Origin: an uncultured bacterium
GTDB lineage: Bacteria > Omnitrophota > Omnitrophia > Omnitrophales > Abzuiibacteriaceae
Direction: 5' to 3'
DNA length: 64,000 bases
Assembly: GCA_964387845.1 (NCBI GenBank)
Contig: CAYLXA010000002.1
Span: forward strand, 1 to 64,000
The notes beneath the pieces were generated by a model, which was not told where the DNA came from, ran no database searches, and was given only the letters and a program-made list of their open reading frames with translations. Position numbers and translations under genes: made by a program. The first letter of the stretch is position 1. The number at the start of each line of letters is the position of its first letter. This document shows positions 1 through 20,123 of the stretch, piece after piece.

Positions 1-1260
1 CAAGGCTCTCCAAAGCCGGTGTCAATTGGGATGACCTCAATAAACTCAGCAAAGCGGGTGTTAATTGGGATGATTTGAATAAACTCTCTAAGGCCGGGGT
101 CAATTGGCAGGGCATCGAAGCCCTCTCCAAAGGCGGGGTCAATTGGACGGATGTGGGTGTCCTCAGTAAGGCCGGTATCAATTGGGATGATTTAAACAGG
201 CTCTCTAAAACAGGCGTCAATTGGGATGATTTAAAATCCTTATCCCGCGCAGGCGTCAATTGGGACGACCTCAGGTCACTCTCTAAGGCCGGGGTCAATT
301 GGCAGGGCATTGAGACTTTATCAAAAGCCGGTATTAATTGGGAGGGTATTCGAGAGCTTGGTTCGGCCGGGGTCAATTGGGATGATTTAGAGGCGCTTTC
401 AACCGCTGGCGTTAATTGGAGCAGTCTTCAGGCGTTGAGCCTTGCAGGGGTCAATTGGGAAGGGATTGAAACTTTATCAAAGTCCGGGGTCAATTGGGAT
501 GATTTCTCGCAGCTTTCAAAAGCAGGCGTCAATTGGGATGATTTGAAGCTGCTTAGCAGAACCGGAGTCAACTGGGATGATTTGCGCTCACTCTCGAAGT
601 CGGGTGTCAATTGGAGCGATTTAAGTTCGTTTTCTAAAGCAGGGGTCAATTGGGACGATTTAAAATCCCTTTCACGAACCGGAGTTAATTGGAATGATCT
701 CAGCCGGCTATCAGCGTCTGGCGTCAATTGGGATGATTTACGAGGACTGTCGCGCGCCGGTATCAATTGGGACGACTTAAGCACTTTTTCAAAAACCGGG
801 GTTAATTGGGACGATATTCAGTCGCTTTCTAAATCAGGCATTAACTGGAATGATATCAACCGGCTTTCTCAGACAGGTATTAATTGGAGCGGTTTGCAAG
901 CATTGAGTAAGGCGGGCGTTAATTGGGCCGGGATTGACGCCTTGTCCAAGGCTGGTGTCAATTGGGATGATATTAAATCGCTTAGCCAAGCAGGTATTAA
1001 TTGGCTGGATATCTATAATTTGAGCACTTCCGGTATTAATTGGTCCGGTATTTTAACGATGAGCAAAGCAGGTGTTAACTGGACCGATGTGGGCAGCATG
1101 AGTAAGTCCAATGTCAACTGGACGGATCTTGCTCGCATGACGGGCTCTGGTATGAATTGGACTGATTTGAGTGGAAAAACTCAAGCGGGCATTAACTGGA
1201 CCAATATTTTCTCACTGTCGACTTCCGGCGTTAACTGGGCAGAGGTAGCGCAGTTAGGAA
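1..1260 (+). repeat. About 32 tandem copies of a 39-nt (13-aa) in-frame repeat, consensus L-S-K-A-G-V-N-W-D-D-L-K-S.
   Basis: Direct reading: gtcaattgg recurs every 39 nt from position 1 to about 1260. The translated motif GVNW(D/Q/S)(D/G)(L/I)xxLSKA repeats. Confidence 0.9.
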
Positions 1261-2093
1261 GCCGAACGACCAGTATTTTAAATACAACCAATACTATCAA
1301 TACTTTGGTAGGAACAGCAGCCGACAGCACTACCACTAATACGTTGTTTGGACGGCTTAATTTAATCGATGATACGGTCAGCGGATTGGATGTCGATGCG
1401 CTTTCCGAATTGTTGGAAGGTTTGGATACAGAATCTATTGAAGCATTGAAAAATAATGTGGACTCAATCGCAGAGTTGGTTGGAGATTCAAGCGATACCA
1501 GCGCAGAGACACTCTTTGGATCTATCAATGCGGTCAGAAGCGTTGCCGATACGACCGGTATTGAAGAGCTCCTTGGAACGATTACGGACACGAAAGCATC
1601 ATCAACTGTTTTAGGAAAGATTGCAGATGTCCGGGAGACCTTAGATTCGATTGACGGCGTAACAGCCGATCTTAAAACAAAGTTAAAGGATTTGAGTGAT
1701 TCTGTGGGAACTCCGGGCGTTAAGGCCAGCGGATCGGTCCGTGATCAGGTGCAAACTGTCAAAGATAACATTCAAGAAATTCGCTTATACCTAGACAAAA
1801 TTTCAGATCAAGGGAAAGAAAATCTAGAAGTAGCGAAAGAAACGATCAATAGCATGATCGAGAAGTTCAATAAAACCGCGGAAGAATTGGGTTTTGTGGG
1901 TGTTAAATTAGACGAGCTTGGCCAAGGCCAAGAGGCGTTGGGTAACCAGGTTTTTGAAGATAAGCTCGAGGAAATTAAAACCTACGTTGTTGCGCTGCTG
2001 CAGGCCTTAAAACCGACATCGATCGACACCGGCGAAGAGGGCGCGGAGGCTCAAATCCAGCCGGTTGTAGTCGCATCGTTGTCGCAAGAGTAA
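1..2093 (+). CDS. 5'-partial repeat protein (13-aa GVNWDDL tandem repeats plus a helical/coiled-coil C-terminal domain). The frame is open to the window start, so the true start is upstream.
   Basis: The reading frame is open from nt 3. The repeats continue to the window edge. The ORF-track start at 75 is only an internal TTG. The C-terminal 270 aa are non-repetitive, acidic and helical. Confidence 0.8.
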   Translation, partial: RLSKAGVNWDDLNKLSKAGVNWDDLNKLSKAGVNWQGIEALSKGGVNWTDVGVLSKAGINWDDLNRLSKTGVNWDDLKSLSRAGVNWDDLRSLSKAGVNWQGIETLSKAGINWEGIRELGSAGVNWDDLEALSTAGVNWSSLQALSLAGVNWEGIETLSKSGVNWDDFSQLSKAGVNWDDLKLLSRTGVNWDDLRSLSKSGVNWSDLSSFSKAGVNWDDLKSLSRTGVNWNDLSRLSASGVNWDDLRGLSRAGINWDDLSTFSKTGVNWDDIQSLSKSGINWNDINRLSQTGINWSGLQALSKAGVNWAGIDALSKAGVNWDDIKSLSQAGINWLDIYNLSTSGINWSGILTMSKAGVNWTDVGSMSKSNVNWTDLARMTGSGMNWTDLSGKTQAGINWTNIFSLSTSGVNWAEVAQLGSRTTSILNTTNTINTLVGTAADSTTTNTLFGRLNLIDDTVSGLDVDALSELLEGLDTESIEALKNNVDSIAELVGDSSDTSAETLFGSINAVRSVADTTGIEELLGTITDTKASSTVLGKIADVRETLDSIDGVTADLKTKLKDLSDSVGTPGVKASGSVRDQVQTVKDNIQEIRLYLDKISDQGKENLEVAKETINSMIEKFNKTAEELGFVGVKLDELGQGQEALGNQVFEDKLEEIKTYVVALLQALKPTSIDTGEEGAEAQIQPVVVASLSQE

Positions 2094-2168
2094 TTTTGAC
2101 TTTAGACAGATAAAAAGTATCAGTTTTTTATCAGGTTAAGCCGTTAATATAAAGAGTTTTTAACTGTT

Positions 2169-3593
2169 ATGGTTACTTATCCTGGGAAAAGTATGATGCA
2201 TCATCTGGCCCATATCTTTATCAGAGCCGTTCTTTTGTGCAGTCTAGCGCACTGTTTTTTTGTCTCGAGAGCGCACGCAGAAGGCGAAGTTAAGATAAAA
2301 ATTTTAGCCATGAATCCGTCGCCGTCTCAAAAAATAGAATCCCTAGTCCGTCAAAACCTGCCGCCCGAAATCAAGCCGGAGGACGTTGTCGATAACGCCG
2401 GAATGGAAATCAAATTCAATACCGACGAGGGTGTTTATTATGTTTCAAAACAAGTAAACCTTGAACCGAAAGAAGCGGTAACGATCGAGGTTCTTGTCCG
2501 GAATGTCTGGCTTGTTCCTGAGGAACGATTGACAAGATTGAGGGACACCGTTTCAACAACCACCAAATCTCTCGCAAAGACAAAATACGAAAAAACAGCT
2601 CAGCTGCTACAGGACAAGGTTTCCGAGCGGATCGGAACAATTGAGGAGGAGCAGGGGCGCAATATCGGAATCGGTAAACGCATCGAGCTTTACCGCTCTC
2701 ACTTGAAGCAGCTGGATGGCATTGAAAAAGAAGTTCTGTCTATCAGCGCGCTCCGCGAACTTGAGGGTGAGCAAGCGGAGGGTGTTCGAACCGCCAAGCT
2801 TGTCATTTCAGCAGAGAACCCTTCCGATGAGCCGCGCAAAATGACCGTGCGCTCTGATTTGCCAAAAGAAATTACCGCGAACGATGTACTGGACAGGCTT
2901 GATTTCCTGCTTTTGTATGATGAAACGAAGCAAAGGTTTTCAGTCGAGAAGGAAGATCAATTTGAAGCTCGAGAAACGAAGAAATATGAAATCACGCTCC
3001 GGGATGTTTGGTATATTCCCAGGATCGAATTGGAACGCTATAAGGAACAAACCGACAAGCTGGTCGCTCTTTTAAAAGGCAGTGCCTATGAAAATTATGT
3101 AACACAACAAGCCAAAATCATTGACGATACGCTGGTATCGATTGACCAATTGCAAATTGAGGTGCAATCGGCCGAATCTATTCAGGATAGAATCGAAGCA
3201 TTTGCACTCAACAGTGAACGTTTGGGGCTTATTAATAAGAAGGTCAAAGAATTACAGGATTTGCTTTTGGAAGTGCCTATCAAACGGCAAGTCAGTGAAA
3301 TTGAAAAAATTAAGCAAGCTATTAAATCACTGACAAAAGTCATGGATATTATCCGAATGGGTTTTAAGCCAGATTTGTCCACAACGTGGTGGATCATTCT
3401 TGGCATCATTGCGTTCTTGATCGTTCTGTCTACTACGTTTTATGTAACATGGCTGTCGCGCTTAAAGGATGCAAAAGGCGGAGCGAAGGGAGTTAAGAAA
3501 GATAAAAAGGGGACTGCGGCAAAAACACCGGCCGGTCAAGCGCAGAGTACTGCCGCAGCTACTCAACCGGCCGCGGAAGGAAAGCCGGCATGA
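2169..3593 (+). CDS. Exported or membrane-anchored protein. It has an N-terminal signal or anchor, two internal ~90-aa domain repeats, a coiled coil, one C-terminal TM helix and a Lys/Ala-rich tail.
   Basis: N-terminal hydrophobic segment. Paired motifs VRNVWLVPEERL and LRDVWYIPRIEL. TM segment WWIILGIIAFLIVLSTTFYVTWL. The stop overlaps the atpA start (ATGA). Confidence 0.6.
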   Translation: MVTYPGKSMMHHLAHIFIRAVLLCSLAHCFFVSRAHAEGEVKIKILAMNPSPSQKIESLVRQNLPPEIKPEDVVDNAGMEIKFNTDEGVYYVSKQVNLEPKEAVTIEVLVRNVWLVPEERLTRLRDTVSTTTKSLAKTKYEKTAQLLQDKVSERIGTIEEEQGRNIGIGKRIELYRSHLKQLDGIEKEVLSISALRELEGEQAEGVRTAKLVISAENPSDEPRKMTVRSDLPKEITANDVLDRLDFLLLYDETKQRFSVEKEDQFEARETKKYEITLRDVWYIPRIELERYKEQTDKLVALLKGSAYENYVTQQAKIIDDTLVSIDQLQIEVQSAESIQDRIEAFALNSERLGLINKKVKELQDLLLEVPIKRQVSEIEKIKQAIKSLTKVMDIIRMGFKPDLSTTWWIILGIIAFLIVLSTTFYVTWLSRLKDAKGGAKGVKKDKKGTAAKTPAGQAQSTAAATQPAAEGKPA

Positions 3594-5080
3594 GCCAGTT
3601 AAGTTATAAAGAGAATGGGATTGTGAAAGCGCTTAGCGGATGTATTGCCAGCGTCATCAATCTGCAGAATTGCTTTCTAGGGCAATTGGTCAAATTTGGA
3701 TACGGCACAGAAGGAATTATCATGGGTTTTGATACACAATCAGCCCAAGTGCTGATTGTAAAAGAAAATGAGCCAATTACTCCCGGAAACGTAGTGGAGG
3801 CCACGCTAGAGCCCTTTAATATGCCAGTCGGCGACGGATATATAGGAAGGATCGTCAATCCTTTGGGTGAACTTCAGGACGGCCGAGAGGCAGTGAAGCC
3901 GGATAAATATATCCCGTATTTTAACGATGCTCCCGGAATTATGGACCGGGAAGGTTTGAGCGAAACGCTTGAAACCGGTATTAAACTTGTCGACAGCATG
4001 CTGCCGCTGGGCAAAGGCCAGCGGTCATTGATTTTAGGCGATAAAATGACCGGAAAAACGACCGTGCTGACGGACATTATGGTCAACCAAAAGGGCAAGG
4101 ATGTGATTTGTATTTACTGCGCAATCGGCAAACCGCGCTCATCCATGGCCCGCGTTGTTGATCTCTTTAAGGAAAAGGGCTGTTTTGATTACACAATCAT
4201 TCTAACTGCGCCCGCATCCAGCTCCCCGGGGCAGCAGTACCTAGCGCCTTATGCGGCGTGTTCGATCGGTGAGTATTTTATGCACAAAGGAAAACATGTT
4301 TTTGTCGGATTTGACGATTTTACAAAGCATGCATGGGCTTATCGCGAACTGTCTCTGCTGATGCAGGTGCCGCCAGGGCGCGATTCTTACCCGGGAGATA
4401 TTTTTTATTTGCACTCCCGCATGATCGAGCGGGCGGCCAAATTAAACAAACAACTGGGCGGCGGGTCCATGACGTTCATTCCCGTGGTCGAGCTTTTGGA
4501 GGGCGATTTGACAGCTTATGTTCCCACCAACCTGGTTTCAATGACAGACGGACAGATCTTTTTGAGCATGCCGCTTTTTAATGAAGGTTTCCGGCCTGCC
4601 GTCGACGTTGGTTTGTCCGTATCGCGCGTCGGCAGCCGCGTCCAATGGAAATCAACAAAAGCGGTGTCTAAGTCACTTCGTTTGGAGTTCATTCAATATA
4701 AAGAATTGCTCCGCATTAGCAAACTGCAAACAGGCGGACAATCGGACGAGGTTCGGGAAAAGCTTTCTCAAGGAAAAGTTTTACAAGCATTGCTAACCCA
4801 ACCAGCGAACAATCCCGTTCCGCTGGAAGTGCAAATCATGTGCTTCTTTGCAAAAGGGGAGAATTTGCTTAAGGATCTCGAAAAAGATCAAATCAACGAA
4901 CTGCAAACGGGGCTCTGGGATTACTCGAACAGCAATGATTCGGGCCTGATTAAATTAATTCGGGAGAAAAAGGATCTGACGGACGAAATTAAAACCCGTA
5001 TCCGAAATGTGATTAATGCCTATGTGAAGGAAATCAAGGCGCGGACGGTTGTGCCGGTTGATGAAGTCGAGGTTGGCTAG
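3590..5080 (+). CDS. atpA: F-type ATPase alpha subunit (divergent)
   Basis: Walker A GDKMTGKTT. Alpha signature PGRDSYPGDIFYLHSRMIERAAKL. Also TAYVPTNLVSMTDGQIF and VGLSVSRVGS. Confidence 0.85.
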   Translation: MSQLSYKENGIVKALSGCIASVINLQNCFLGQLVKFGYGTEGIIMGFDTQSAQVLIVKENEPITPGNVVEATLEPFNMPVGDGYIGRIVNPLGELQDGREAVKPDKYIPYFNDAPGIMDREGLSETLETGIKLVDSMLPLGKGQRSLILGDKMTGKTTVLTDIMVNQKGKDVICIYCAIGKPRSSMARVVDLFKEKGCFDYTIILTAPASSSPGQQYLAPYAACSIGEYFMHKGKHVFVGFDDFTKHAWAYRELSLLMQVPPGRDSYPGDIFYLHSRMIERAAKLNKQLGGGSMTFIPVVELLEGDLTAYVPTNLVSMTDGQIFLSMPLFNEGFRPAVDVGLSVSRVGSRVQWKSTKAVSKSLRLEFIQYKELLRISKLQTGGQSDEVREKLSQGKVLQALLTQPANNPVPLEVQIMCFFAKGENLLKDLEKDQINELQTGLWDYSNSNDSGLIKLIREKKDLTDEIKTRIRNVINAYVKEIKARTVVPVDEVEVG

Positions 5081-5092
5081 CGAGAGAGTGTT

Positions 5093-5314
5093 ATGCAGCA
5101 GACAATTATTTTAATCGGAATTATGGTGATCGCTGTGTTGGGTCCGGCCATCGTTATTGCAGTTGTTGGATTTGCGACCATTAAAGCGCTTGGCAGGAAC
5201 CCATCAGCTGCACCGAAGATATTTTTGGGAGTTATTTTAATGCTGGTTTTTGCCGAAGCCACATCAATCATTGCGCTTTTGGTCGTGTTTCAATTGTTTA
5301 GCGGCGGCCAATAG
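5093..5314 (+). CDS. atpE: F-type ATPase c subunit (proteolipid)
   Basis: 73-aa two-helix hairpin. Polar loop ALGRNP. Conserved carboxylate in the second helix (FAEATSI). Confidence 0.75.
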   Translation: MQQTIILIGIMVIAVLGPAIVIAVVGFATIKALGRNPSAAPKIFLGVILMLVFAEATSIIALLVVFQLFSGGQ

Positions 5315-5331
5315 AACTCTAAGGAGAGGGT

Positions 5332-6069
5332 ATGTTTATTATTCAATTTATATTACTTCAAGTAATTGTTTTCTCCGGCGTCATTTTTTTCTTAAAAAAA
5401 ATACTCTACGGTGATACGCAAAGCGCCATCAACCGCCTCAACCGAGAATACCAAGATTTGTTGAACAAACAGAAACAGCTTGCTCAGAAAGTTGAGGAGG
5501 CGGAAAAAGAGCTTGTTCTAAAAAAGGAAGAAGCGGTTCAGGTTAAAAATAAGATGACCACGCAGGCAATGGACGAAATTCGCCAACAAAAGGACGAAAC
5601 GGTCATGAAAGCCAAGCAGGAGGCTGAAGAGATTGTTGCAAAGGCAAAAGCAGCTGCGGACAAAAATTATCGGGAGATCGAGAAGCAAGTGAGGGCAAAG
5701 TTGACAGAAAACGCCGCAGACCTCCTGAGGCAATCGATTAGTGAGCGGATCATTAAAGCGACTCACACCGAATTAATTGCCGAATTTTTAGAAAGAGCAA
5801 AAAGCTTTGATCTGACCAATGTTGACCCAAGCATTCAGAAGTTAATGGTGAAAACAGCTCTTCCGCTTACAGCATCGGAAAAAGAAAAAATTAAAATGTT
5901 TGTGAATGAGCGATTGGGCCGGACGCTTGAGCTGGAAGAGGTTGAAGATAAAACACTTATTTCAGGCGTTGTGCTGATGTTTGGAACGCTGTTGATGGAC
6001 GGCAGTATGGTTAATTATATTAAGGAAGCAGAGCTGAAAATTAAACAAACCATCGAAAAGGAAACCTAA
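5332..6069 (+). CDS. ATPase b subunit fused to a delta (OSCP) C-terminal domain
   Basis: N-terminal TM helix plus long charged coiled coil (b-like). C-terminus LGRTLELEEVEDKTLISGVVLMFGTLLMDGSMVNYI resembles the delta-subunit C-terminal domain. Confidence 0.65.
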   Translation: MFIIQFILLQVIVFSGVIFFLKKILYGDTQSAINRLNREYQDLLNKQKQLAQKVEEAEKELVLKKEEAVQVKNKMTTQAMDEIRQQKDETVMKAKQEAEEIVAKAKAAADKNYREIEKQVRAKLTENAADLLRQSISERIIKATHTELIAEFLERAKSFDLTNVDPSIQKLMVKTALPLTASEKEKIKMFVNERLGRTLELEEVEDKTLISGVVLMFGTLLMDGSMVNYIKEAELKIKQTIEKET

Positions 6070-6075
6070 TCCGGC

Positions 6076-6975
6076 ATGGGTAAGGTAGCTCAGATCAAGG
6101 GCGATTTGGATGACGTCGAGGCGCTTCTTGAAATTATTACCATTTTAAAAGACGTTTCCACAAACCGGTTCTTTGCTTTTGCCCAGCAGAAAGACGATTT
6201 GAGCAAATTTCTGGAAATCTTTCTTATTTTCTTTGACATGGTTGCCGGCATTGAAACAACATGCCCGTTGGTACGGAATGAAAATCCGGCAACCGATATC
6301 GTGCTCATCACATCGGAGTCCAGTTTCATGTCACAAATGAATACCAGGGCCTGTAGTGCGGCGCTTGTAGAATTTCAAAAAAATCCAAGCGCAAGAATTG
6401 TTTGTGTGGGGCGCCGGGGTATCGACCGCTGCAAGCAGCTTGGAATGAAGGTGGATAAGTCTTATGAGAACGTGGATTTGGTCGGCCGTTATGAAACTTC
6501 GCTGATGATCCGGGATTATCTCATTGACCGCATCATGACCGGTACGACAGGAAAAGTGATGTGTATTTATATTTGGCCGAAAAGTTTCAGCGTTTTGAAA
6601 CCGCGCGTTGTGCGCTTGCTGCCCGCCACCGAGCTATTGAGCGATCAGGAAGAACAGGCGGCTGGAGAAGGGGAGCAAAAAGATGATAAACCAGTTCAGC
6701 AGGTGAGGGATGTGATTCAGGAGTCGGGAATTGACGGGATCATGAAAGTACTTGCCGACATCTGGGTTTCTTCGCGTCTTTTTGAAATTCTTTCGGATAC
6801 AAAATTGGCTGAAGCAGCTGCGCAATCGCAGCAGTTAGAATCGGCCATGGAAGGTCTTTCAAAAGAAAAGTCAGGATTGATGCTTGGTTTTAAAAAAGCG
6901 GTGCGCGGCGATTTGAATGCTGCGATGCGCGAAGTGTTTACGTCACAAAAAGCCATCAAATCAAGACGGGGATAA
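6076..6975 (+). CDS. atpG: F-type ATPase gamma subunit
   Basis: The C-terminal helix motif AEAAAQSQQLESAMEGLSKEKSGLMLGFKKAVRGDLNAAMREVFTSQ matches the gamma C-terminus. The central ITSE..FMSQMN region is also gamma-like. Confidence 0.7.
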   Translation: MGKVAQIKGDLDDVEALLEIITILKDVSTNRFFAFAQQKDDLSKFLEIFLIFFDMVAGIETTCPLVRNENPATDIVLITSESSFMSQMNTRACSAALVEFQKNPSARIVCVGRRGIDRCKQLGMKVDKSYENVDLVGRYETSLMIRDYLIDRIMTGTTGKVMCIYIWPKSFSVLKPRVVRLLPATELLSDQEEQAAGEGEQKDDKPVQQVRDVIQESGIDGIMKVLADIWVSSRLFEILSDTKLAEAAAQSQQLESAMEGLSKEKSGLMLGFKKAVRGDLNAAMREVFTSQKAIKSRRG

Positions 6976-6979
6976 ATAA

Positions 6980-8386
<1,407 letters not shown>

Positions 8387-8392
8387 GGATAC

Positions 8393-10579
8393 GTGGTGAT
8401 AATTAGTCCTGCAGAAAAAACATCATTTGATGCGCTGGTTAGTTCGGGCATCCTTCAGAAAGACGATCTAGAGAAGGTTGTCAAAGCCGCTGCGCACGAA
8501 AAGCTCTCGCTGTCTGAATTTGTCGTACGCTCCGGCCGGATCAAAGATGCCGAGCTTCCGAATGTTTATGCAAAGTACTTCAAGGTTCCTGCCATTCAAC
8601 TTAAATCGATCGAAACTGACCGTGCCGTTATCGAAAAGGTTCCCGTTAAGTTCTCCAATTATTATAAATTTTTCCCCGTTAAACTGCACAATCACAGGCT
8701 GACAATCGCCATTTCACAACCGATGGATGTCGGTACGCTGGATGAAATCCGGTTAGGGCTTGGGTTTGACATTGATTTCGTTTTCGCTTCAGGGCGTGAT
8801 ATCGAAGAAATGAGCAAGCGTTATTATGGATTAGGTGCCGAGACAGTTGACCGCATCATGATGCAAAAAAGCGGACAAGATTTACCCGCTTCCGCGCACA
8901 TGAGTGCCGCCGTTCAGGTTGAGGACATAGAAAAACTTGCAGAGACCGCATCAGTTGTGCAGCTCGTGAATCAAATTTTCCTGGATGCTTACCGAAAAGG
9001 CGCCAGCGATATTCATATCGAGCCTTACCGAGGCCGTGTTCGGCTGCGGTATAGGATTGACGGTGTTCTGCAGGAAGCGCGTGTGCCGCCCGATTTGATG
9101 CGGTTTTTTATGCCGATTTTGTCACGCATTAAAATCATGGCAAATCTTAATATCGTGGAACGCCGGTTGCCGCAAGATGGCAAGGCGCGCGTCAAGACAC
9201 AGGATCAAACCTTAGATTTACGGATTTCATCGATCCCCACACCGCTTGGCGAGAGCATGGTGGTCCGGATCCTTCCCAGTAAAATGATTCTGAGCTTGGA
9301 AGAACTTGGTTTTGAGGCGGATCATTTGAAGATATTTAAGGACCTGCTCAAGCGGCCCCATGGCGTGATTTTCCTGACAGGCCCGACCGGCAGCGGTAAA
9401 AGCACGACCTTATACTCTGGGTTCAGCTCAATGGATACGATGGTGAAGAAAGTTGTAACCATCGAAGACCCGATTGAGTATGAAATCGACGGAATCACAC
9501 AAGTGCAGGTTATGCCCGAGATCGGCCTCACATTTGCACGCGGTCTCCGGAGCATGCTTCGGCACGATCCGGACGTGATGATGGTCGGCGAAGTCCGGGA
9601 TTTGGAAACGGCCGATATTGCCATTCGGGCGGCTTTGACGGGGCATTTGATTTTATCGACATTGCACACCAACGACGCCGCGAGCGGAATTACGCGCCTG
9701 ATCGACATCGGAGCGCAGCCTTATCTGGTCGCTTCGAGCGTTATCGCTTTTATCGCGCAGCGGCTGGTTAGGGTGATTTGCCCCAACTGCAAGCAAGAGA
9801 ACAAATCTCTTTCGGAAGCAACCCTCAATCTCATCAAATCCGACCTAAATTTGACAGCGGACGATTCAGTTAAAACTTATATCGGAACCGGTTGTGATGA
9901 GTGTAATCAAACAGGATTTCGCGGGCGTGTCGCTGTGCACGAGATCATTCTGATCAATGAAGAAATCCGAAAATTGATCTACACAAAAGCATCGTCAGAG
10001 GAAATTAAGTTGAGGGCTCGCAGCCTCGGCATGAGGACGCTCAGGCAGGATGGATGGAAAAAGGTCTTGAGAGGCATTACGACTGCCAACGAAGTGATGG
10101 AAATTACGCCGGCCGATGAGATTGAAAACAGGGAATTGAAAGAGATGTTTCAAGAGGTTACGATTGCCCAGTCTCCGATCAAGCAGACCGATGAGTTTGT
10201 GGAGCGCAGGCGCTATCCCCGAGCGGTTGTTAAGTTTCCTTTGTCATTCCGCGTCATTGGCCAAGGATCTCCCGCTTCCAAAAGTGCATCGAGCACCGAA
10301 GAATGGGTGGAAGCCGAATCGGAGGATCTGAGTGCCAGCGGACTCATTTTTTCTAGCGCTCAAATCGCACAAATCGGCCAATTGCTCGAGTTTAAGCTAG
10401 AACTCCCCGATCGAAGTCAACCGGTCCAATGCATCGGACGCGTGCTCAGGGTTGAAGAGAGCGATCAAAATATATCCCGAAAGACAGTGGTGTCCTACCG
10501 TGTTTCAGTAACTTTTTTGTCGATTAATAGTGTCGACCGATCAAGAATTGAAGCTTTTTGCCAGGGCCGCGTGTCATGA
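8393..10579 (+). CDS. gspE: GspE/PilB-family secretion/pilus ATPase with a C-terminal PilZ domain
   Basis: Walker A GPTGSGKST. His box. Tetracysteine CPNC..CDEC. C-terminal extension with RRRYPR and DLSASG PilZ motifs. Confidence 0.85.
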   Translation: MVIISPAEKTSFDALVSSGILQKDDLEKVVKAAAHEKLSLSEFVVRSGRIKDAELPNVYAKYFKVPAIQLKSIETDRAVIEKVPVKFSNYYKFFPVKLHNHRLTIAISQPMDVGTLDEIRLGLGFDIDFVFASGRDIEEMSKRYYGLGAETVDRIMMQKSGQDLPASAHMSAAVQVEDIEKLAETASVVQLVNQIFLDAYRKGASDIHIEPYRGRVRLRYRIDGVLQEARVPPDLMRFFMPILSRIKIMANLNIVERRLPQDGKARVKTQDQTLDLRISSIPTPLGESMVVRILPSKMILSLEELGFEADHLKIFKDLLKRPHGVIFLTGPTGSGKSTTLYSGFSSMDTMVKKVVTIEDPIEYEIDGITQVQVMPEIGLTFARGLRSMLRHDPDVMMVGEVRDLETADIAIRAALTGHLILSTLHTNDAASGITRLIDIGAQPYLVASSVIAFIAQRLVRVICPNCKQENKSLSEATLNLIKSDLNLTADDSVKTYIGTGCDECNQTGFRGRVAVHEIILINEEIRKLIYTKASSEEIKLRARSLGMRTLRQDGWKKVLRGITTANEVMEITPADEIENRELKEMFQEVTIAQSPIKQTDEFVERRRYPRAVVKFPLSFRVIGQGSPASKSASSTEEWVEAESEDLSASGLIFSSAQIAQIGQLLEFKLELPDRSQPVQCIGRVLRVEESDQNISRKTVVSYRVSVTFLSINSVDRSRIEAFCQGRVS

Positions 10580-11793
10580 AAAAATTTGTTTATCAAGCCA
10601 AGAAAAAACCCGGTGAATTTGTGAATGGATCATTGATGGCCGATTCGCAAGATGAAGCTATCGACAAGATAAGTGCGCAGGGCTTATTTCCAATTGAAGT
10701 CAAAGAAGAGGTGGCTCAAGAAGTTCCCAGAACAGCGGTGCCGCAAAACTTTTCAAAACGCATACCCTCACGAGACTTGATCATGTTTTACCGGCAAATC
10801 GCCAAAATGACGCAATCCGGCATTCCAATTTTAAGAGCTATTGGTTTTATTTACGACCAATCTACGAAATCGCCCCTGAGACCCGTTTTAGAAAATGTGC
10901 AGACCATGATCGGCCAGGGCGAGAACTTTTCGGGCGCTCTTAGCCGGTACCCGCGCGTATTTTCATCCTTTGATTTAGCTATGATCGCAGCCGGAGAGAG
11001 TGTTGGGAAACTGAATGAATCGCTTTTGCAGCTTGCAAAACACAGGGCCGACCAGCAGGCGCTTTTGTCGCGCGTCCGCGGTGCGTTGGCTTATCCGGCA
11101 TTTATTCTCGTGATGGGTGTTTTGACCGTAAGCTTCATGTTGACGCATGTGATTCCGCAATTTTCACGCTTTTTCGCCGATCTCGGCCAAAATTTACCCA
11201 TTCCGACACAAATTTTGATCGCAATTAGCCAGTGGCTTCAGGCAAACTGGGTTGGGATTGTTGCTATATTGGTTTTTCTATTTTTTTTATTACAGCGGAT
11301 TTTAAAATCTGAGAGCGAAAGGCGGATTTTTGATCGCCTGGTCCTTAAGGTTCCGCAAGTTGGGAATTTGATCTTAAAAGTGGAGATTGCACGATTTAGC
11401 CGATCTCTTGAAATTTTAATCAAGAATAAGATGCAGGCGCTTCAAGCGGTCTCAATCGTGATTCCGATTGTTCAAAATCGCTCCATCCGAGATGAGTTGG
11501 AAAAAAGTCGCCAGCAAATGGAGCAGGGCGGTTATTTGAGCGAAGGCCTAGGGCAATCTGAGGTTTTTCCGAAATTTGTCCATTATCTCATCAGAACGGG
11601 CGAAGAGTCGGGGCGTTTGGATGAAGCGCTTGCCGAAATTGCGGATTGGTACGAATCGGAAATTGATGAAACCGTCAAAGTGACAACCAGTTTAATGGAG
11701 CCCCTTGTTATTTTAGTCGTCGGGTTTATTCTAGGTCTGATCGTTATAGCGGTTTTGATGCCGGTATTTAGCATGAACGCCGCGATTCAATAG
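10576..11793 (+). CDS. gspF: GspF/PilC inner-membrane platform protein
   Basis: GspF-type duplicated cytoplasmic domains and three TM segments. ATG overlaps the gspE stop (ATGA). Confidence 0.85.
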   Translation: MKKFVYQAKKKPGEFVNGSLMADSQDEAIDKISAQGLFPIEVKEEVAQEVPRTAVPQNFSKRIPSRDLIMFYRQIAKMTQSGIPILRAIGFIYDQSTKSPLRPVLENVQTMIGQGENFSGALSRYPRVFSSFDLAMIAAGESVGKLNESLLQLAKHRADQQALLSRVRGALAYPAFILVMGVLTVSFMLTHVIPQFSRFFADLGQNLPIPTQILIAISQWLQANWVGIVAILVFLFFLLQRILKSESERRIFDRLVLKVPQVGNLILKVEIARFSRSLEILIKNKMQALQAVSIVIPIVQNRSIRDELEKSRQQMEQGGYLSEGLGQSEVFPKFVHYLIRTGEESGRLDEALAEIADWYESEIDETVKVTTSLMEPLVILVVGFILGLIVIAVLMPVFSMNAAIQ

Positions 11794-11810
11794 CTAACAG
11801 AGGAATTAAA

Positions 11811-12251
11811 ATGAAACATTATTTTCATCATCAAAAAATGTACCAGCGAGGGTTTTCACTTATCGAAATTCTGCTGGTTGTTGTTATCATCGGAACGCTT
11901 GCCGGCATGATGATTCCGCGGATTACGGGGCGTTCCGAACAGGCCCGCATGGCAGCTGCCAAAGCAGATGTTAACGTTAACATTCCAACGGCGCTAAAAC
12001 TTTACGAACTCGACAATGGGTTTTTTCCGACAACTGATCAGGGTTTGACCGCGCTGTTAAAAAGACCCGATACTCAACCGACACCACAAAACTGGAACGG
12101 GCCGTATCTAGAAAAAATGCCCATCGATCCTTGGGGCAGGCCGTATCATTACAGTTCGCCTGGGGTCAATCGGCCGCACGATTATGACTTATTTTCTTCC
12201 GGCAAAAACGCCGGAAAGGAGAAGGTGGATGATGATATCAAGAACTGGTAG
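11811..12251 (+). CDS. gspG: Major pseudopilin GspG
   Basis: Prepilin N-terminus QRGFSLIEILLVVVIIG. GspG hallmark DPWGRPYHY. Confidence 0.85.
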   Translation: MKHYFHHQKMYQRGFSLIEILLVVVIIGTLAGMMIPRITGRSEQARMAAAKADVNVNIPTALKLYELDNGFFPTTDQGLTALLKRPDTQPTPQNWNGPYLEKMPIDPWGRPYHYSSPGVNRPHDYDLFSSGKNAGKEKVDDDIKNW

Positions 12252-12660
12252 ACGGCGGGCTAGCGCACCTTGTTTAAAATCGCAAACCGGGGTAACTCTG
12301 GTTGAAACCTTGGCAGCCGTTGTCATTTTATCAATCGGGATTGTCGCGGTGTATCAACCGCTTCTACGGTCATTGACGGTGCTGCATGAAATGGATGCCC
12401 GGCTGGAAGCGGACCGGTTGGCATCAGATGAGCTTTGGTTGTTAAAAATGAACCAAACTCGTCTCCAGGCCCTCTCAAAGGCTTCCGAGCAAAGTCAGGC
12501 TGTTGGTGCCGAGCGTGCTTATGCGTACGCAATTGAATCAAAGCCCCTCACAGAAGATAAGGTTTTAAACATGGTTCGTTTAAGGATGGAGTGGAATATC
12601 TCAGGCCGTTTAAAAGGAATTACGCAAACCAGTTATGTTGAAATTCCAAACGCGAATTAA
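12229..12660 (+). CDS. Minor pseudopilin (GspH/I-like)
   Basis: Prepilin-type N-terminus GVTLVETLAAVVILSIG. About 143 aa. The ORF-track start at 12184 overlaps gspG, so the ATG at 12229 is preferred. Confidence 0.65.
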   Translation: MMISRTGRRRASAPCLKSQTGVTLVETLAAVVILSIGIVAVYQPLLRSLTVLHEMDARLEADRLASDELWLLKMNQTRLQALSKASEQSQAVGAERAYAYAIESKPLTEDKVLNMVRLRMEWNISGRLKGITQTSYVEIPNAN

Positions 12661-13258
12661 ACAAACCGCCGGTTTTACCCTAGTGGAAACCATGCTGGCG
12701 GTTCTTATTATTTCAATCGTGAGCGCAGCGCTCTATGGGATTTTTTCCAATGGTGTCCAGGTCTGGCATCGCGCTAGTACTCCGAAGCTAAACTACGAAA
12801 TCCATTTCTTTTTTGAGCAATTAGAAGCGGATCTCCGGAATCTTTTGCCGAACGATCAAACACCTTTCAAGGGACAAAACTATTCTTTTGAATTCTCCTC
12901 ACTGAGCCCGAGCGTAAAAATTGTTAATGCCGCAGAATCGCGCGGCGTGCCGGCCCGCCTTAAGTATGATTTTCACAGTTCAAAACACTCCGTCAGCCGA
13001 ATCGTGAGAGATTATTACAACATTCTGAATAAACAAACCAAGCCGTCGTCAGAGCGAAATTTGCTTCAGGGGATCAGCCGGTGTACGTTTCAATATTTTA
13101 AGAAAGTAAATGAATTACAGGCGCCTTCTTGGAATAATAGCTGGTCAGACCTCTGCGTGCCGAATGCGGTCAAAGCAAGTGTCGAATATATGGAAGCGGG
13201 GCGCCTGCGTGTATTGACCAAAGTAATTCCTATTCCGGCGGGCGGGTGTTTTGTATGA
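12635..13258 (+). CDS. Minor pseudopilin (GspJ-like)
   Basis: Prepilin-type N-terminus AGFTLVETMLAVLIISIV. 207 aa. Confidence 0.65.
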   Translation: MLKFQTRIKQTAGFTLVETMLAVLIISIVSAALYGIFSNGVQVWHRASTPKLNYEIHFFFEQLEADLRNLLPNDQTPFKGQNYSFEFSSLSPSVKIVNAAESRGVPARLKYDFHSSKHSVSRIVRDYYNILNKQTKPSSERNLLQGISRCTFQYFKKVNELQAPSWNNSWSDLCVPNAVKASVEYMEAGRLRVLTKVIPIPAGGCFV

Positions 13259-14760
13259 AACTCCCCGGAACGCCTGCAAGTGGTTTGGGGCTGAAAAAGG
13301 CATCTAAGTCCAGCGAGACCATTTTAATCGAGCTGAGCGACAGCCGTATCAAAATCGTATCTCTCAGCGAATCACAGGGCAATTTAACCGTAGAAAGCGT
13401 TGCGCAAAAATCGGTTGTCGGGCTGTCAGACCAAGATGTTGCGGCATTTATCGCGCAATATTACAAGAAGCAAAATATTAAATCGAAGCAACTGGTTTGC
13501 GCGATACCTTCCGGTTATTTGATTTCCAAAAATGTTGATATGCCTTCCAGTGATCCGGAGGAAATAAAAAAAATAATTGATTTGCAGGCGGGGCGTTATA
13601 CGCCGTATTCGCGCGAGGAAATCGTCATTGATTATCTCTCAAGCAGCAAGCCCGGTCAGCACTACACCAATGTTTTATTAATTATTGTCCATCGTAAAAA
13701 TATTGATCGGCTACTCAAAATCAGCGAACTTGCCGGTCTTGAAGTATCCAGGATTGTCTGCGCATCAGAAGCAATGGCGCTCATTTGCGACCAAGTCCGT
13801 CAGCGCATCCTGCAGAAGAACTCAGCCGTCACAGGGATCCATGTTGCTGAGGAACAGATCGATTTAATATTTTCTGACCAGGGCCAACTTGTTTTTGCGA
13901 GAAGTATTCCGGTCGGATTTCGTCACTTTTCAGCCGGAAAGGAATCGGCAGATGCCGATTTTGCAAAGGAGCTCGACCAATCTTTTTCGGCTTATCAAAG
14001 CCAGGGCATCGGCCAGCCCGTTGAATTGGTTGCTTTTTCTGGCCTTGCCAAACAGTTGGCATCGCTGGAGGGTACGATCAAAAGCTCCGTTCCTTATGCG
14101 TCTGCCAGTTCTCTTGTGTTTGAAATGATACCGGAGGAAAAAGAGTTTCACTTATCAGATGAAGCTTTGGCAGCTTGCAAAAATGATCCGGAGGTATCAT
14201 TTTTTTCGGTTATTGCTTCGGTTTGGATGCTTAAATCACTTAAGCTTGACTTCGTCCCGAAGGAAGTAAAGCTAAGAAAAAAAGTTCAAGAGGGGAGCCG
14301 AGATATTATTGCTTTAGGCGTTCTTTTGATGACCCTTATTTTGTTGATCTGTGTTTTCCTGGGCGTGCAGATTTATCTGAAAAAGGACATCATCAAGCGG
14401 CTTGAATCTATTAATGTGAAGACGTCTGACCAAGCCAAGACCCTCGAGCAGGCTTCCACCAAGAGCCGTGTTCTGCGTAATTTGCTGGATAGCCGCGGAA
14501 AGGGCCTTTATGTTTTTGAGAAAATATCAACGGTGATCGGTGAGGATATTTATTTGGCTAGTTTTAGTTTTGATAAAGACGACATTATTAAATTGGCGGG
14601 CACCGCAGATTCCATGTCGCGTGTTTTTGCATTTGTTACCGAATTGGAAGAATCTCAATATTTTAAGGATGTTAAAACCAATTCAACAAAATCCAGGCGC
14701 CAAGGCCAGCGAGAAGTGGCTGATTTTGAAATCGAGTGTACGTTTTCCGAAGGTATTTAA
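13255..14760 (+). CDS. PilM-PilN fusion / GspL-like assembly protein (cytoplasmic actin-like domain, one TM, periplasmic domain)
   Basis: N-terminal PilM-like region, then TM IIALGVLLMTLILLICVFLGV, then a PilN-like C-terminal domain. ATGA overlap with the upstream gene. Confidence 0.6.
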   Translation: MKLPGTPASGLGLKKASKSSETILIELSDSRIKIVSLSESQGNLTVESVAQKSVVGLSDQDVAAFIAQYYKKQNIKSKQLVCAIPSGYLISKNVDMPSSDPEEIKKIIDLQAGRYTPYSREEIVIDYLSSSKPGQHYTNVLLIIVHRKNIDRLLKISELAGLEVSRIVCASEAMALICDQVRQRILQKNSAVTGIHVAEEQIDLIFSDQGQLVFARSIPVGFRHFSAGKESADADFAKELDQSFSAYQSQGIGQPVELVAFSGLAKQLASLEGTIKSSVPYASASSLVFEMIPEEKEFHLSDEALAACKNDPEVSFFSVIASVWMLKSLKLDFVPKEVKLRKKVQEGSRDIIALGVLLMTLILLICVFLGVQIYLKKDIIKRLESINVKTSDQAKTLEQASTKSRVLRNLLDSRGKGLYVFEKISTVIGEDIYLASFSFDKDDIIKLAGTADSMSRVFAFVTELEESQYFKDVKTNSTKSRRQGQREVADFEIECTFSEGI

Positions 14761-14775
14761 CAAAAAGAAAAACAT

Positions 14776-15411
14776 ATGATTGATGCATTCTATGCAAAGT
14801 TAAAAGGAAGGGAACGAGTACTTTTCGTGGCGGCGGTAAGCTGTGTTGTTATGGTTTTGATGGACCGGCTTGTCATTGGCCCCATTTTGTCACAGATGAA
14901 GCTGATGGATGCCGAGATTTCCGCAAAAACACAGACAGTCCGCCGGAATATGCGAATCCTTTCATTTCGCGATAGTATTTTAAATGATTATTCGCGTTAC
15001 AGCGCCTACTTTGACTCGGTAAATCGAAAACAGGAAGAGATTATTTCCAGACTTCTCAAGGAAATCGAATCAATCGCTGCTCAGAAATCGATCACAATTG
15101 TTAATATTAAGCCCGGTGATGTGCAGGAAAATCCGGTCTTTCATGAGTATAAAACCACCTTGGAATTTTCAGGTAAGCTGTTGGACATACTCGGTTTTAT
15201 GAGCTTGTTGGAAGAATCTGACTATTTGTTCAGAATCACTGAATTTTCGATGACGCCGAAATCAAAGAATTCAGATGTTATGAAGTGCGTCCTCAATGTG
15301 ACCAGAATATTGATGACAGCCGAAAATGTGCCTTCACCGGCGGTAAGCGTGGCGCAGCCGTCTAATGCAGCCGCGCCCGGCGCTTTACCGTTTGGAGGGG
15401 AACCGGCGTGA
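14776..15411 (+). CDS. PilO/GspM-like bitopic assembly protein
   Basis: Single N-terminal TM, a coiled coil and a ferredoxin-like C-terminal region. Position follows the GspL-like gene. Confidence 0.5.
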   Translation: MIDAFYAKLKGRERVLFVAAVSCVVMVLMDRLVIGPILSQMKLMDAEISAKTQTVRRNMRILSFRDSILNDYSRYSAYFDSVNRKQEEIISRLLKEIESIAAQKSITIVNIKPGDVQENPVFHEYKTTLEFSGKLLDILGFMSLLEESDYLFRITEFSMTPKSKNSDVMKCVLNVTRILMTAENVPSPAVSVAQPSNAAAPGALPFGGEPA

Positions 15412-16468: not shown

Positions 16469-16480
16469 GAGATATGCTCC

Positions 16481-19800: not shown

Positions 19801-20123
19801 GGCAAGCAGGTTTAAAAATATATACGGTTTTTTTGGCGGCTTTTCTCGTTGCACAATCGGGAATTTTGCTAGCCGAAGATCAAATGGCTCAAGATAGCGG
19901 TATCCGAAAATATGGGGTTGTTCACAATATTGCCGATGACCGCAAAGTTGAAAAGGTGGGCGGTATTTACGAGCCTGAGGGATTGGATAAGTATTTGCAA
20001 AGGCGGTTAGACGATGTGACTGCCCGCTTGGATGAATTTTCAGAAAAGTTAAACAAGATTGACCAAAAACTAGAATCCTTGAGTTTGCAGTCGCGAACAG
20101 CGTCCGACGGCGATCATTCATGA
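19797..20123 (+). CDS. Small exported coiled-coil protein
   Basis: Signal peptide followed by a coiled coil. Both start and stop are coupled to neighbours by overlap. Confidence 0.4.
   Translation: MRQAGLKIYTVFLAAFLVAQSGILLAEDQMAQDSGIRKYGVVHNIADDRKVEKVGGIYEPEGLDKYLQRRLDDVTARLDEFSEKLNKIDQKLESLSLQSRTASDGDHS

What the first reader, a model, noticed from the sequence alone, without database searches (positions are those of the whole stretch)
1..2093. Giant protein built from about 32 near-identical 13-aa GVNWDDL tandem repeats, sitting upstream of the ATPase/secretion locus
A 39-nt unit repeats in frame at least 32 times up to the window edge, so more copies probably lie upstream. Identity is very high even at the nucleotide level. 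Each unit carries an invariant Trp and the G-V/I-N-W core. The repeats end abruptly in a 270-aa acidic helical domain. I do not recognise this repeat class. It is not a pentapeptide, LRR, choline-binding or RHS/YD repeat. The low nucleotide divergence implies recent expansion or concerted evolution, and it permits copy-number variation by slippage or recombination. It could be a surface fibre, adhesin, or a substrate or scaffold of the adjacent machinery.
Basis: seen in the sequence. Interest (0 to 1): 0.75.

Follow-up and report, generated by a model that had tools for sequence, protein, structure and literature searches.

The report
Undescribed 13-residue repeat fibre protein, Omnitrophota
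The window opens inside a real gene made of strictly 13-residue Trp-containing repeats; the family is undescribed and almost confined to Omnitrophota bacteria, always sits inside the same secretion-plus-rotary-ATPase gene cluster, and ranges from about 870 to more than 16,000 residues, so it is most likely a length-variable exported fibre of that machine.

Summary
The repeat array is real. There are 32 in-frame 13-aa units with no indel, Asn-Trp is invariant, and a 279-aa acidic helical C-terminal domain follows. The units are not near-identical: mean nucleotide identity is 57%, so recent expansion is not supported for the visible part.

No Pfam, NCBIfam or PDB family fits. An exhaustive profile search of 1.84 billion proteins found only 499 hits.

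Relatives are almost all from Candidatus Omnitrophota. In about 60 independent contigs the gene holds one fixed position: secretin, TPR, FGE-like genes (not in every locus), REPEAT PROTEIN, a bitopic membrane protein, an F-type ATPase with no a subunit in the operon, then T2SS GspE/F/G.

Full-length relatives have a Sec signal peptide, a variable beta-rich N-terminus, 20 to about 1,200 repeats, and a conserved C-terminal domain. Sizes run from 868 aa to a called gene of 16,204 aa. Assemblies usually break inside the array, as at this window's edge.

AlphaFold predicts one short helix per unit, but at low confidence, so the fold is unresolved.

Best reading: an exported, length-variable fibre (tether or adhesin) that belongs to, or is secreted by, this machine. 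The locus is published; the repeat protein is not.

The parts
1..2093 (+). 3' part (696 codons + stop, frame 3) of the repeat-protein gene; the 5' end lies beyond the window edge
   Evidence: homologues
6..1253 (+). Array of 32 complete 13-aa (39-nt) units, consensus LSKAGVNWDDLxS; Asn-Trp invariant, no indel
   Evidence: family consensus [LM][ST]x[ATS]G[IV]NWxD[ILF]xx over 3,942 units in 55 loci
1254..2090 (+). Conserved C-terminal helical acidic domain (279 aa, net charge -26) with internal (S/T)xxTLFGxI motifs; its tail ...QPVVVASLSQE is a variant of the family's terminal motif VV(I/V)K(T/S)W(F/Y)E
2169..3593 (+). Always-adjacent partner gene (474 aa): signal peptide, two tandem beta-rich modules each followed by a coiled coil, a C-terminal TM helix (aa 401-430) and a basic cytoplasmic tail. 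No known family. Its stop overlaps the start of the alpha subunit gene
3590..5080 (+). F1 ATPase alpha subunit
5093..5314 (+). F-type ATPase c subunit (73 aa, two TM helices, loop GRNP, Glu in TM2)
5332..6069 (+). b/delta (OSCP) fusion subunit
6076..6975 (+). F1 gamma subunit
6983..8386 (+). F1 beta subunit
8393..10579 (+). GspE/PilB-type ATPase with an N-terminal MshEN domain and a C-terminal PilZ domain
10558..11793 (+). GspF platform protein
11811..12251 (+). Major pseudopilin GspG (NCBIfam equivalog, 147.7 bits against a cutoff of 88.85)
12184..13258 (+). Two minor pseudopilins (N_methyl; T2SSJ-like)
13246..16115 (+). PilM-PilN fusion, PilO-like protein and TPR protein (assembly platform)
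20120..21139 (+). GspK-like minor pseudopilin (124.9 bits against a cutoff of 130)

Best explanation
The ORF is the C-terminal 696 residues of a Sec-exported, non-enzymatic fibrous protein found almost only in Candidatus Omnitrophota. Full-length relatives have four parts. First comes a cleavable signal peptide. Second is a variable, beta-rich N-terminal region of 300 to 1,550 aa, which carries Ig_Rha78A_N domains in the large forms. Third is an uninterrupted array of 13-residue units, from about 20 up to about 1,200 copies. Fourth is a conserved 150-310-aa helical acidic C-terminal domain ending in a VV(I/V)K(T/S)W(F/Y)E motif.

Inferred structure: each unit most likely forms one short capped helix. 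Asn7 would be the N-cap, Asp10 the capping-box partner, Val6 and Leu11 the hydrophobic staple, and Gly5 the C-cap, with the Trp packing against neighbouring units. The array would then be a thin, regular rod whose length scales with copy number.

The gene is a fixed member of one operon-like cluster: secretin, TPR, FGE-like genes (not in every locus), this gene, a bitopic inner-membrane protein, an F-type ATPase with no a subunit in the operon, then GspE/F/G and pseudopilins.

Inferred mechanism: the protein crosses the inner membrane by Sec. Its conserved C-terminal domain docks on the machine, probably on the neighbouring bitopic protein. The repeat rod and the variable N-terminal tip are put outside the cell through the type II secretion apparatus, where they act as a length-tunable tether or adhesin for contact with host or prey cells.

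Shown here: the repeat anatomy, the taxonomic restriction, the synteny, the signal peptides, the size range, and the lack of any known family. Inferred: the fold, the extracellular location, the docking and the adhesive role.
For: Anatomy: 32 units with exact 13-aa spacing. Up to 255 and 232 consecutive units without one indel are seen at the two ends of a 16,204-aa gene. At least 205 uninterrupted units occur in four other genomes.

Family: the named homologues are all Omnitrophota. In the pattern scan of 185,579 species genomes, most multi-copy hits are titled Omnitrophota or 'uncultured Planctomycetales/Planctomycetia' MAGs. Only 499 of 1.84 billion representative proteins match at E<=1e-3.

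Synteny: three gene-called contigs; about 20 loci downstream and about 20 upstream by tblastn; 20 of 20 metagenome loci with at least 1 kb upstream of the partner gene; L150. Locus L082 keeps the repeat protein, the partner gene and GspE/F but has no ATPase, which ties the protein to the secretion system rather than to the ATPase.

Export: signal peptides of the form AxA|Q(Y/I)xGGS in more than 15 full N-termini.

Secretion machine: GspG passes its equivalog cutoff, with GspK, GspE, GspF and a secretin present.

Local helix: both AlphaFold runs place a 9-residue helix at W8 to K3 of every unit. The conserved positions match textbook helix-capping motifs (own knowledge: capping box, hydrophobic staple, Schellman glycine). 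The hydrophobic moment in that segment is 0.49 at 100 degrees against 0.25 at 170 degrees.

Polarity: the N-terminal region varies (300 versus 1,550 aa). The C-terminal domain and the three or four units next to it are conserved (sequences). This is the pattern expected for a conserved anchor and a variable tip.
Against: No localisation or expression data exist for this protein in the material I could read. The window lacks the N-terminus, so the signal peptide is known only from relatives.

AlphaFold confidence for the array is low (pLDDT 40-55 in one run, 42 in the other), so the helical reading could be wrong. An invariant Asn and Gly with strict unit length are also hallmarks of beta-solenoids. 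Hydrophobic periodicity is ambiguous: the strongest harmonic is 2.6 residues on the Kyte-Doolittle scale and 3.25 on the Eisenberg scale.

T2SS substrates normally fold in the periplasm before export. It is unclear how a rod of hundreds to about 1,200 units would do that.

The role of the ATPase is unexplained by a plain adhesin model.
Confidence: 0.45

Rival explanations
1. Periplasmic or envelope structural element that is not secreted. After Sec export the protein stays between the membranes. Anchored by its C-terminal domain to the bitopic neighbour, it would act as a scaffold, spacer, belt or coat component of the secretion/ATPase machine or of the cell envelope.
For: There is a signal peptide but no outer-membrane anchor, sortase, T1SS or T9SS signal. 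The partner protein has a large periplasmic coiled-coil portion. Very long forms are hard to reconcile with T2SS export of folded cargo.
Against: A rod of 200 to 1,200 units would far exceed the periplasmic width unless it wrapped around the cell. The variable N-terminal Ig-like region looks like a ligand-facing tip. The gene sits between the secretin and the pseudopilin genes.
Confidence: 0.2
2. Multivalent glycan or cell-wall binding array. Each unit would offer its invariant Trp, Asn and Asp as a carbohydrate-binding site, in the way aromatic residues act in choline-binding or clostridial CROP repeats. The array would be an avidity device for host envelope polymers rather than an inert stalk.
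For: Trp and Asn are invariant and Asp10 is conserved at about 76% per unit. Looser xNW repeats occur in other signal-peptide-bearing multidomain proteins that also carry Glug, CARDB, InlB-B-like or peptidase domains. Omnitrophota are inferred to attach to other cells (PMC10066038).
Against: If the units are capped helices, then Asn, Asp and Trp have structural roles. There is no similarity to any carbohydrate-binding family. No ligand is known.
Confidence: 0.15
3. Mechanical load of the F-type ATPase. ATP-driven rotation of the c-ring, in an operon with no a subunit, would be passed through the bitopic neighbour to the fibre. The fibre would be reeled, rotated or stepped, by analogy with the F1-like ATPase that powers the surface 'legs' of Mycoplasma mobile.
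For: The order repeat gene, partner gene, alpha is fixed, and in the window the partner gene's stop overlaps the alpha start. The c subunit keeps its loop and a TM2 Glu, yet no a subunit is encoded in the operon. Seymour et al. proposed a motility or attachment role for this ATPase.
Against: L082 keeps the repeat and partner genes without any ATPase. Alpha and beta score above the ordinary atpA/atpD cutoffs and below the gliding-ATPase cutoffs. The rest of the genome was not examined for an a subunit. No physical link has been shown.
Confidence: 0.1
4. Artefact: a collapsed or mis-assembled repeat, or non-coding satellite DNA that happens to be open.
For: The array touches the window edge, and most related contigs end inside their arrays.
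Against: Units are 41-82% identical, so they cannot collapse. The frame stays open for 697 codons here and for 16,204 in a relative. Conservation is at residue level with varied codons. More than 70 independent assemblies share the same domain order.
Confidence: 0.01

Closest known systems
'Symbiotic' F-type ATPase / type-4a-pilus loci of Omnitrophota (Seymour et al. 2023, Nat Microbiol, PMC10066038)
   Same: This is the same locus. F-type alpha, gamma, beta and b/delta genes sit next to GspE/F/pilin genes, in the same phylum.
   Different: The words 'repeat', 'hypothetical' and 'sulfatase' do not occur in the paper's main text, so the repeat protein, its bitopic partner and the FGE-like genes appear not to be described there. 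Here the pilin-like system scores as a T2SS, with GspG above its equivalog cutoff.
Giant proteins of Omnitrophota (Archaeovorins, dockerin-type; West-Roberts et al. 2023 bioRxiv 10.1101/2023.11.21.568195; 2026 bioRxiv 10.64898/2026.06.07.730766)
   Same: Same phylum, very large size in some members, adjacency to T2SS-like genes, and a proposed adhesion role.
   Different: Those proteins are mosaics of Pfam domains (HEAT, GT, dockerin, TSP3, WD, TPR). This one is a single 13-aa unit with no Pfam model. It also sits inside the secretion locus rather than after it.
Repeat-extender adhesins of Gram-negative bacteria (LapA, SiiE, MpIBP and other RTX/BIg adhesins; own knowledge)
   Same: Same logic: specialised end domains joined by a tandem-repeat stalk whose copy number sets its length.
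   Different: Their repeats are beta-sandwich Ig-like domains of about 100 aa. They use a C-terminal T1SS signal and have no Sec signal peptide. No sequence similarity was found.
Short aromatic solenoid repeats (choline-binding CW_binding_1, clostridial CROPs; own knowledge)
   Same: Short tandem units, each with a conserved aromatic residue, building elongated extracellular modules.
   Different: Those units are about 20 aa and form beta-hairpins. There is no Pfam hit here, the period here is 13, and the local prediction is helical.
Lysostaphin N-terminal 13-aa repeats (Pfam PF25533)
   Same: Same 13-residue period. This is the only Pfam model that gives a notable score (55.7 bits, E 5.7e-15).
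   Different: The score is below the gathering cutoff of 60, with no individually significant stretch. Relatives score 27-32 bits. The match is best explained by shared period and composition.
Mycoplasma mobile gliding machinery (F1-like ATPase plus huge surface proteins such as Gli349; own knowledge, and cited in PMC10066038)
   Same: An F1-type ATPase is genetically linked to a very large surface protein in a host-attached bacterium.
   Different: There is no homology between the surface proteins. The alpha and beta subunits here fall below the MMOB1660/1670 cutoffs. A c subunit and a T2SS are present here. The organism is diderm.

Membership tests
Pfam Lysostaphin_N (PF25533) | Whole-protein score at or above the gathering cutoff (60 bits) | tested here: not met
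   55.7 bits with 0 individually significant stretches. Relatives score 31.9, 26.8 and 27.0 bits.
   None is listed for the window protein or for five relatives.
Any family with a solved structure | Sequence or profile match to a PDB chain, or a Foldseek match of the model | tested here: not met
   phmmer best E 0.95. Profile best E 0.06, coiled-coil noise only. Foldseek has no hit below E 0.1, and the model is low-confidence in the array.
Type II secretion exoprotein | N-terminal Sec-type signal peptide | tested here: met
   Seen by eye in more than 15 full-length relatives (n-region, h-region, AxA|Q). It cannot be tested for the window copy, whose N-terminus lies off the window.
Type II secretion exoprotein | Encoded with a T2SS (GspD/E/F/G/K) | tested here: met
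   GspG 147.7 bits against a cutoff of 88.85; GspK 124.9 against 130; GspE and GspF present; a secretin lies upstream in relatives.
Type II secretion exoprotein | T2SS-dependent appearance outside the cell | not testable with these tools
   Needs experiment.
Omnitrophota F-type ATPase/T4aP locus (Seymour 2023) | F-type ATPase genes within 10 kb of pilus/T2SS genes, in Omnitrophota | tested here: met
   Window 3590-8386 lies next to 8393-16115. The relatives are Omnitrophota.
Omnitrophota F-type ATPase/T4aP locus (Seymour 2023) | Alpha subunit groups with Mycoplasma type-2/3 ATPases rather than with ordinary AtpA | tested here: inconclusive
   No tree was built. By HMM score, alpha passes the atpA cutoff (520.8 against 484.45) and is below glide_MMOB1660 (399.7 against 600).
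RTX/BIg repeat adhesins | Ig-like repeats of about 100 aa, a T1SS C-terminal signal, no Sec signal | tested here: not met
   Units are 13 aa; a Sec signal is present in relatives; there are no Big or RTX Pfam hits in the array.
Omnitrophota Archaeovorin / dockerin-type giants | HEAT/GT/TPR or dockerin/TSP3 domain content, at least 30,000 aa | tested here: not met
   None of these domains is found. The largest member seen is 16,204 aa.
Alpha-helical solenoid (structural class) | Confidently predicted or solved stack of helices | tested here: inconclusive
   There is one helix per unit in both models, but at pLDDT 40-55 and 42. The periodicity test is ambiguous.

The most novel reading that the evidence does not exclude
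The 13-residue unit is a new solenoid fold that builds rods up to roughly a micrometre long. The rod would be the working element of a new envelope machine: an F-type rotary ATPase with no a subunit in its operon, coupled through the bitopic neighbour protein to a type II secretion apparatus, reels, rotates or extends the fibre to capture host or prey cells.
Probability: 0.1. Interest if true: 0.9.

Novelty: new variant of a known kind. Interest (0 to 1): 0.66.

Why it matters
Omnitrophota are widespread ultrasmall bacteria thought to live on other cells, and how they attach is unknown. This work adds three things.

First, it puts a conserved and previously unremarked protein at the centre of their published ATPase/pilus locus. 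That gives the locus a candidate working part (fibre plus membrane partner) that can be tested by proteomics, cryo-ET and expression.

Second, it defines a repeat class with no model in Pfam, NCBIfam or the PDB. The class keeps an exact 13-residue register over hundreds of units, which makes it an attractive target for structural work and for protein design.

Third, it explains a recurrent assembly break in Omnitrophota genomes, and it shows that gene lengths of 0.9 to more than 16 kaa arise from one unit.

Tried and rejected
1. Finding the window's own contig to read the missing 5' end failed. I tried exact-protein look-ups of three window genes, megablast against all fetched loci and a 50-mer scan of metagenome contigs. 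The copy number of this particular gene stays unknown.

I replaced these with a hand-made periodic DNA pattern and a four-sequence alignment.

3. The second AlphaFold job used 12 units with an in-register alignment of repeat blocks. It was meant to raise confidence but gave pLDDT 42. The other fold-search libraries were not used because the models are too weak.

4. Beta-solenoid reading: not excluded. I judge it less likely because each 13-residue unit carries 4-5 bulky hydrophobic residues including Trp, which is hard to fit in so tight a coil (own reasoning), and because both models are helical.

5. GldK/PorK-like ring idea for the upstream FGE-sulfatase-domain genes: they share the Pfam family only, and there is no NCBIfam GldK/GldJ/PorK hit. 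Dropped to a passing note.

6. N-glycosylation of the invariant Asn by the STT3 encoded in the locus: N-W-S/T sequons occur in only 28% of the window's units and in 0-80% of units elsewhere. Asn invariance is therefore not explained by glycosylation. Kept only as a lead.

7. A universal two-unit (hairpin) super-period: not found. Only lineage-specific 6-unit and 9-unit super-repeats appear.

8. Kizina et al. 2022 (V. archaeovorus proteome) is not held in the library, so expression evidence could not be checked.
Full report
OBSERVATION. The window opens inside an ORF in frame 3 (nt 3..2093, + strand) that has no start in the window. Cutting the translation at each Trp gives 32 complete units of exactly 13 residues (nt 6..1253) with no insertion or deletion. 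Asn7 and Trp8 are present in 32/32 units, Gly5 in 31/32 and Val/Ile6 in 31/32. The consensus is LSKAGVNWDDLxS. The first codon of the window belongs to a preceding unit, so the array runs off the edge. After unit 32 the sequence changes abruptly to a 279-aa tail with net charge -26.

Mean pairwise identity between units is 57% at nucleotide level and 54% at protein level, and adjacent units are 41-82% identical. Tandem Repeats Finder recognises only two short stretches. Codons for the conserved Gly and Leu vary between units, so conservation acts on the protein.

NO KNOWN FAMILY. Pfam gives only sub-threshold hits. The best is Lysostaphin_N, another 13-residue repeat, at 55.7 bits against a cutoff of 60 with no significant individual stretch. 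Relatives score 27-32 bits on that model. NCBIfam, PDB sequence search, PDB profile search and Foldseek give nothing meaningful. An exhaustive HMM search of 1.84 billion representative proteins, using a profile of 12 in-register units, finds only 499 proteins at E<=1e-3 and 34 at E<=1e-30. The family is rare.

WHO HAS IT. All named homologues come from Candidatus Omnitrophota. I scanned one genome per species (185,579 species) for four AAYTGG motifs spaced 39 nt apart. Most of the multi-copy stretches are from genomes titled Omnitrophota or 'uncultured Planctomycetales/Planctomycetia' MAGs. A few multi-copy hits are short contigs binned elsewhere, and the single-match loci look like chance.

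ARCHITECTURE AND SIZE. Full-length relatives share one layout. P0004 is 868 aa, P0003 is 900 aa and P0039 is 2,809 aa.
- A signal peptide with an AxA|Q(Y/I)xGGS junction.
- A beta-rich N-terminal region, about 300 aa in the small forms and about 1,550 aa with Ig_Rha78A_N domains in P0039.
- The 13-aa array.
- A helical C-terminal domain that ends in VV(I/V)K(T/S)W(F/Y)E.

The window's tail (...QPVVVASLSQE) is a variant of that ending, and it is identical in the nearest relative, L122.

Copy number varies enormously. Complete genes carry about 20-33 units. Many contigs carry at least 100-163 units plus the C-terminal domain. Four genomes have whole 8-kb stretches, at least 205 units, open at both ends; one of these is a complete 3.36-Mb chromosome. 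In metagenome contig Ga0163146_10000109 the called gene product is 16,204 aa. Its first 10 kb holds 255 Asn-Trp pairs and its last 9.9 kb holds 232, all spaced by exactly 13 residues, followed by the usual C-terminal domain. A 582-aa N-terminal ORF is separated from it by one frameshift. Over 3,942 units in 55 loci the consensus is [LM][ST]x[ATS]G[IV]NWxD[ILF]xx.

So 'giant' is true of the family. It is unknowable for the window's copy, because its contig was not found in any collection.

ASSEMBLY BEHAVIOUR. In about 18 of 20 metagenome loci the array ORF runs into the contig end, 1-7 kb (mostly 2-4 kb) upstream of the partner gene. The window looks the same, with the partner gene starting at nt 2169. 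The window edge is therefore probably a contig end inside the array. The array is not a collapse artefact, because the units are too different.

ARRAY EVOLUTION. Within arrays, mean unit identity is 53-68% at nucleotide level everywhere I measured. Some lineages show 6-unit or 9-unit super-repeats. There is no universal two-unit period. Between the window and its nearest relative (L122, partner gene 75% identical), the last 10 or so units pair one-to-one, while upstream units do not, and L122 shows block duplications. The three or four units nearest the C-terminus (...M(T/S)GxG(M/V)NW(T/S)D...) are recognisable by eye even in distant homologues (sequences). The array is old at its C-terminal end and turns over further upstream.

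CONTEXT. The downstream genes in the window are as follows.
- A 474-aa protein of no known family. It has a signal peptide, two tandem beta-rich modules each followed by a coiled coil, a C-terminal TM helix and a basic tail.
- F1 alpha, a c subunit, a b/delta fusion, gamma and beta.
- GspE carrying MshEN and PilZ domains, then GspF.
- GspG, above its equivalog cutoff, followed by minor pseudopilins.
- A PilM-N fusion, PilO, a TPR protein and, further on, GspK.

No a subunit is encoded in this operon, either here or in three gene-called relatives.

The same order recurs widely. The order is repeat C-terminus, partner, alpha, (epsilon), c, b/delta, gamma, beta, GspE, GspF. It appears in about 20 genome loci, and in 20 of 20 metagenome loci that have upstream sequence. 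Upstream of the repeat gene, about 20 loci show secretin and TPR followed, in most of them, by one or two FGE-sulfatase-domain genes, then the repeat N-terminus. One locus (L082) keeps the repeat gene, the partner gene and GspE/F but has no ATPase.

Seymour et al. 2023 already described the F-type ATPase/type-4a-pilus co-location in Omnitrophota and proposed a role in attachment or motility. The words 'repeat', 'hypothetical' and 'sulfatase' do not occur in the main text of that paper. Two preprints on Omnitrophota giant proteins describe other, Pfam-rich architectures.

FOLD. AlphaFold on the 696-aa fragment with 24 homologues gives mean pLDDT 57.6. The C-terminal domain forms long helices at pLDDT 70-90. 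Every repeat unit is modelled as a 9-residue helix (W8 to K3 of the next unit) plus a 4-residue linker (A-G-V-N), but at pLDDT of only 40-55. A second run on 12 units with an in-register block alignment again gives local helices, at pLDDT 42.

The conserved positions fit textbook helix capping (my own knowledge). Asn7 would be the N-cap, Asp10 the N3 capping-box residue, Val6 and Leu11 the hydrophobic staple, and Gly5 the C-cap. Hydrophobic periodicity is not decisive.

I favour one capped helix per unit, stacked into an elongated rod. The tertiary fold is unresolved, and a beta-solenoid is not excluded.

INTERPRETATION. The evidence consists of Sec signal peptides, the absence of any enzymatic domain, a variable N-terminal tip region, a copy-number-variable and strictly periodic stalk, a conserved C-terminal domain, a fixed position between the secretin and the T2SS inner-membrane genes, and retention with the T2SS when the ATPase is absent. 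Together these point most economically to an exported fibre that belongs to, or is secreted by, this T2SS. It would probably be anchored through its C-terminal domain, possibly on the bitopic neighbour, and used as a length-tunable tether or adhesin. The location, the docking and the function are inferences.

Three rivals remain: a non-secreted envelope scaffold, a multivalent glycan-binding array, and a fibre mechanically driven by the ATPase.

VERDICT. The repeat array is a real, rare and undescribed repeat class. It is a conserved core gene of a published but mechanistically opaque Omnitrophota locus, and some members are true giants. Its functional guess is reasonable and is now better grounded.

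Noticed in passing
window 3590-8386: The F-type ATPase operon has the order alpha, c, b/delta fusion, gamma, beta, with no a subunit and, here, no epsilon. The c subunit keeps the GRNP loop and a Glu in TM2. Alpha and beta score above the ordinary atpA/atpD NCBIfam cutoffs and below the Mycoplasma gliding-ATPase cutoffs. Whether an a subunit is encoded elsewhere in the genome is unknown.
   Followed up: partly
window 8393-10579: The GspE/PilB-type ATPase carries both an N-terminal MshEN domain and a C-terminal PilZ domain. Both are known c-di-GMP-binding modules (own knowledge), which suggests that c-di-GMP controls the machine. L002 has the same fusion; L001 lacks the PilZ domain.
   Followed up: no
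window 16121-19800 and about 21000-58000: An STT3/PglB-type oligosaccharyltransferase (17176-19800), a GT2 and a DUF2304 gene lie inside the T2SS gene set. A glycan-synthesis island of about 35 kb follows, with GT2s, epimerases, DegT, nucleotidyltransferase, pyruvyl transferase and two PMT-like GT-C enzymes (46035-47963 and 55872-57812). 28% of the window's repeat units carry an N-W-S/T sequon, and 0-80% do in other arrays. Glycosylation of the fibre is therefore possible but untested.
   Followed up: partly
L150 10001-21749 and L135 1-9863 (contig Ga0163146_10000109): A 16,204-aa called gene is made almost entirely of the 13-aa unit and shows a 6-unit super-repeat. It is preceded by a 582-aa ORF holding the signal peptide and N-terminal domain, separated from it by a single frameshift. 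Either this is an assembly error or the gene is genuinely split.
   Followed up: partly
L082 (JAYSWD010000059.1) 3-5148: A variant locus in which the repeat protein and its partner gene are followed directly by GspE and GspF, with no F-type ATPase genes.
   Followed up: no
L001 6796-9991 and about 15 other loci: One or two FGE-sulfatase-domain genes of about 520-550 aa sit between the TPR gene and the repeat gene; some loci, such as L150, lack them. This is the same Pfam family as the ring lipoproteins GldK/PorK of type IX secretion (own knowledge), but there is no NCBIfam GldK/GldJ hit. Their role is unknown.
   Followed up: partly
window 2169-3593 (alignment A3): The partner protein is an internal duplication. 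There are two copies of a module ...AVNPS...LPxE...D...YD...PKExK...V(R/K)DVWxI..., each followed by a coiled coil. Asn, Pro, Asp and Trp are invariant at matching positions in both copies. No family or structure matches.
   Followed up: partly
P0002-P0006, P0038, P0039 (relatives): Many arrays contain one conserved 'punctuation' where two Asn-Trp pairs are only 6 residues apart (...NW(D/S)ExINWDNL...). The window's 32 visible units contain none, so if this gene has one it lies upstream.
   Followed up: no
P0025-P0037 (distant hits): Looser (G)(V/I)NW motifs with irregular spacing of 12-17 residues occur in other signal-peptide-bearing multidomain proteins. Some look to me like phage tail fibres (own impression, not tested), and their source organisms are mostly unnamed. 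They may be distant cousins of the strict 13-aa unit.
   Followed up: no
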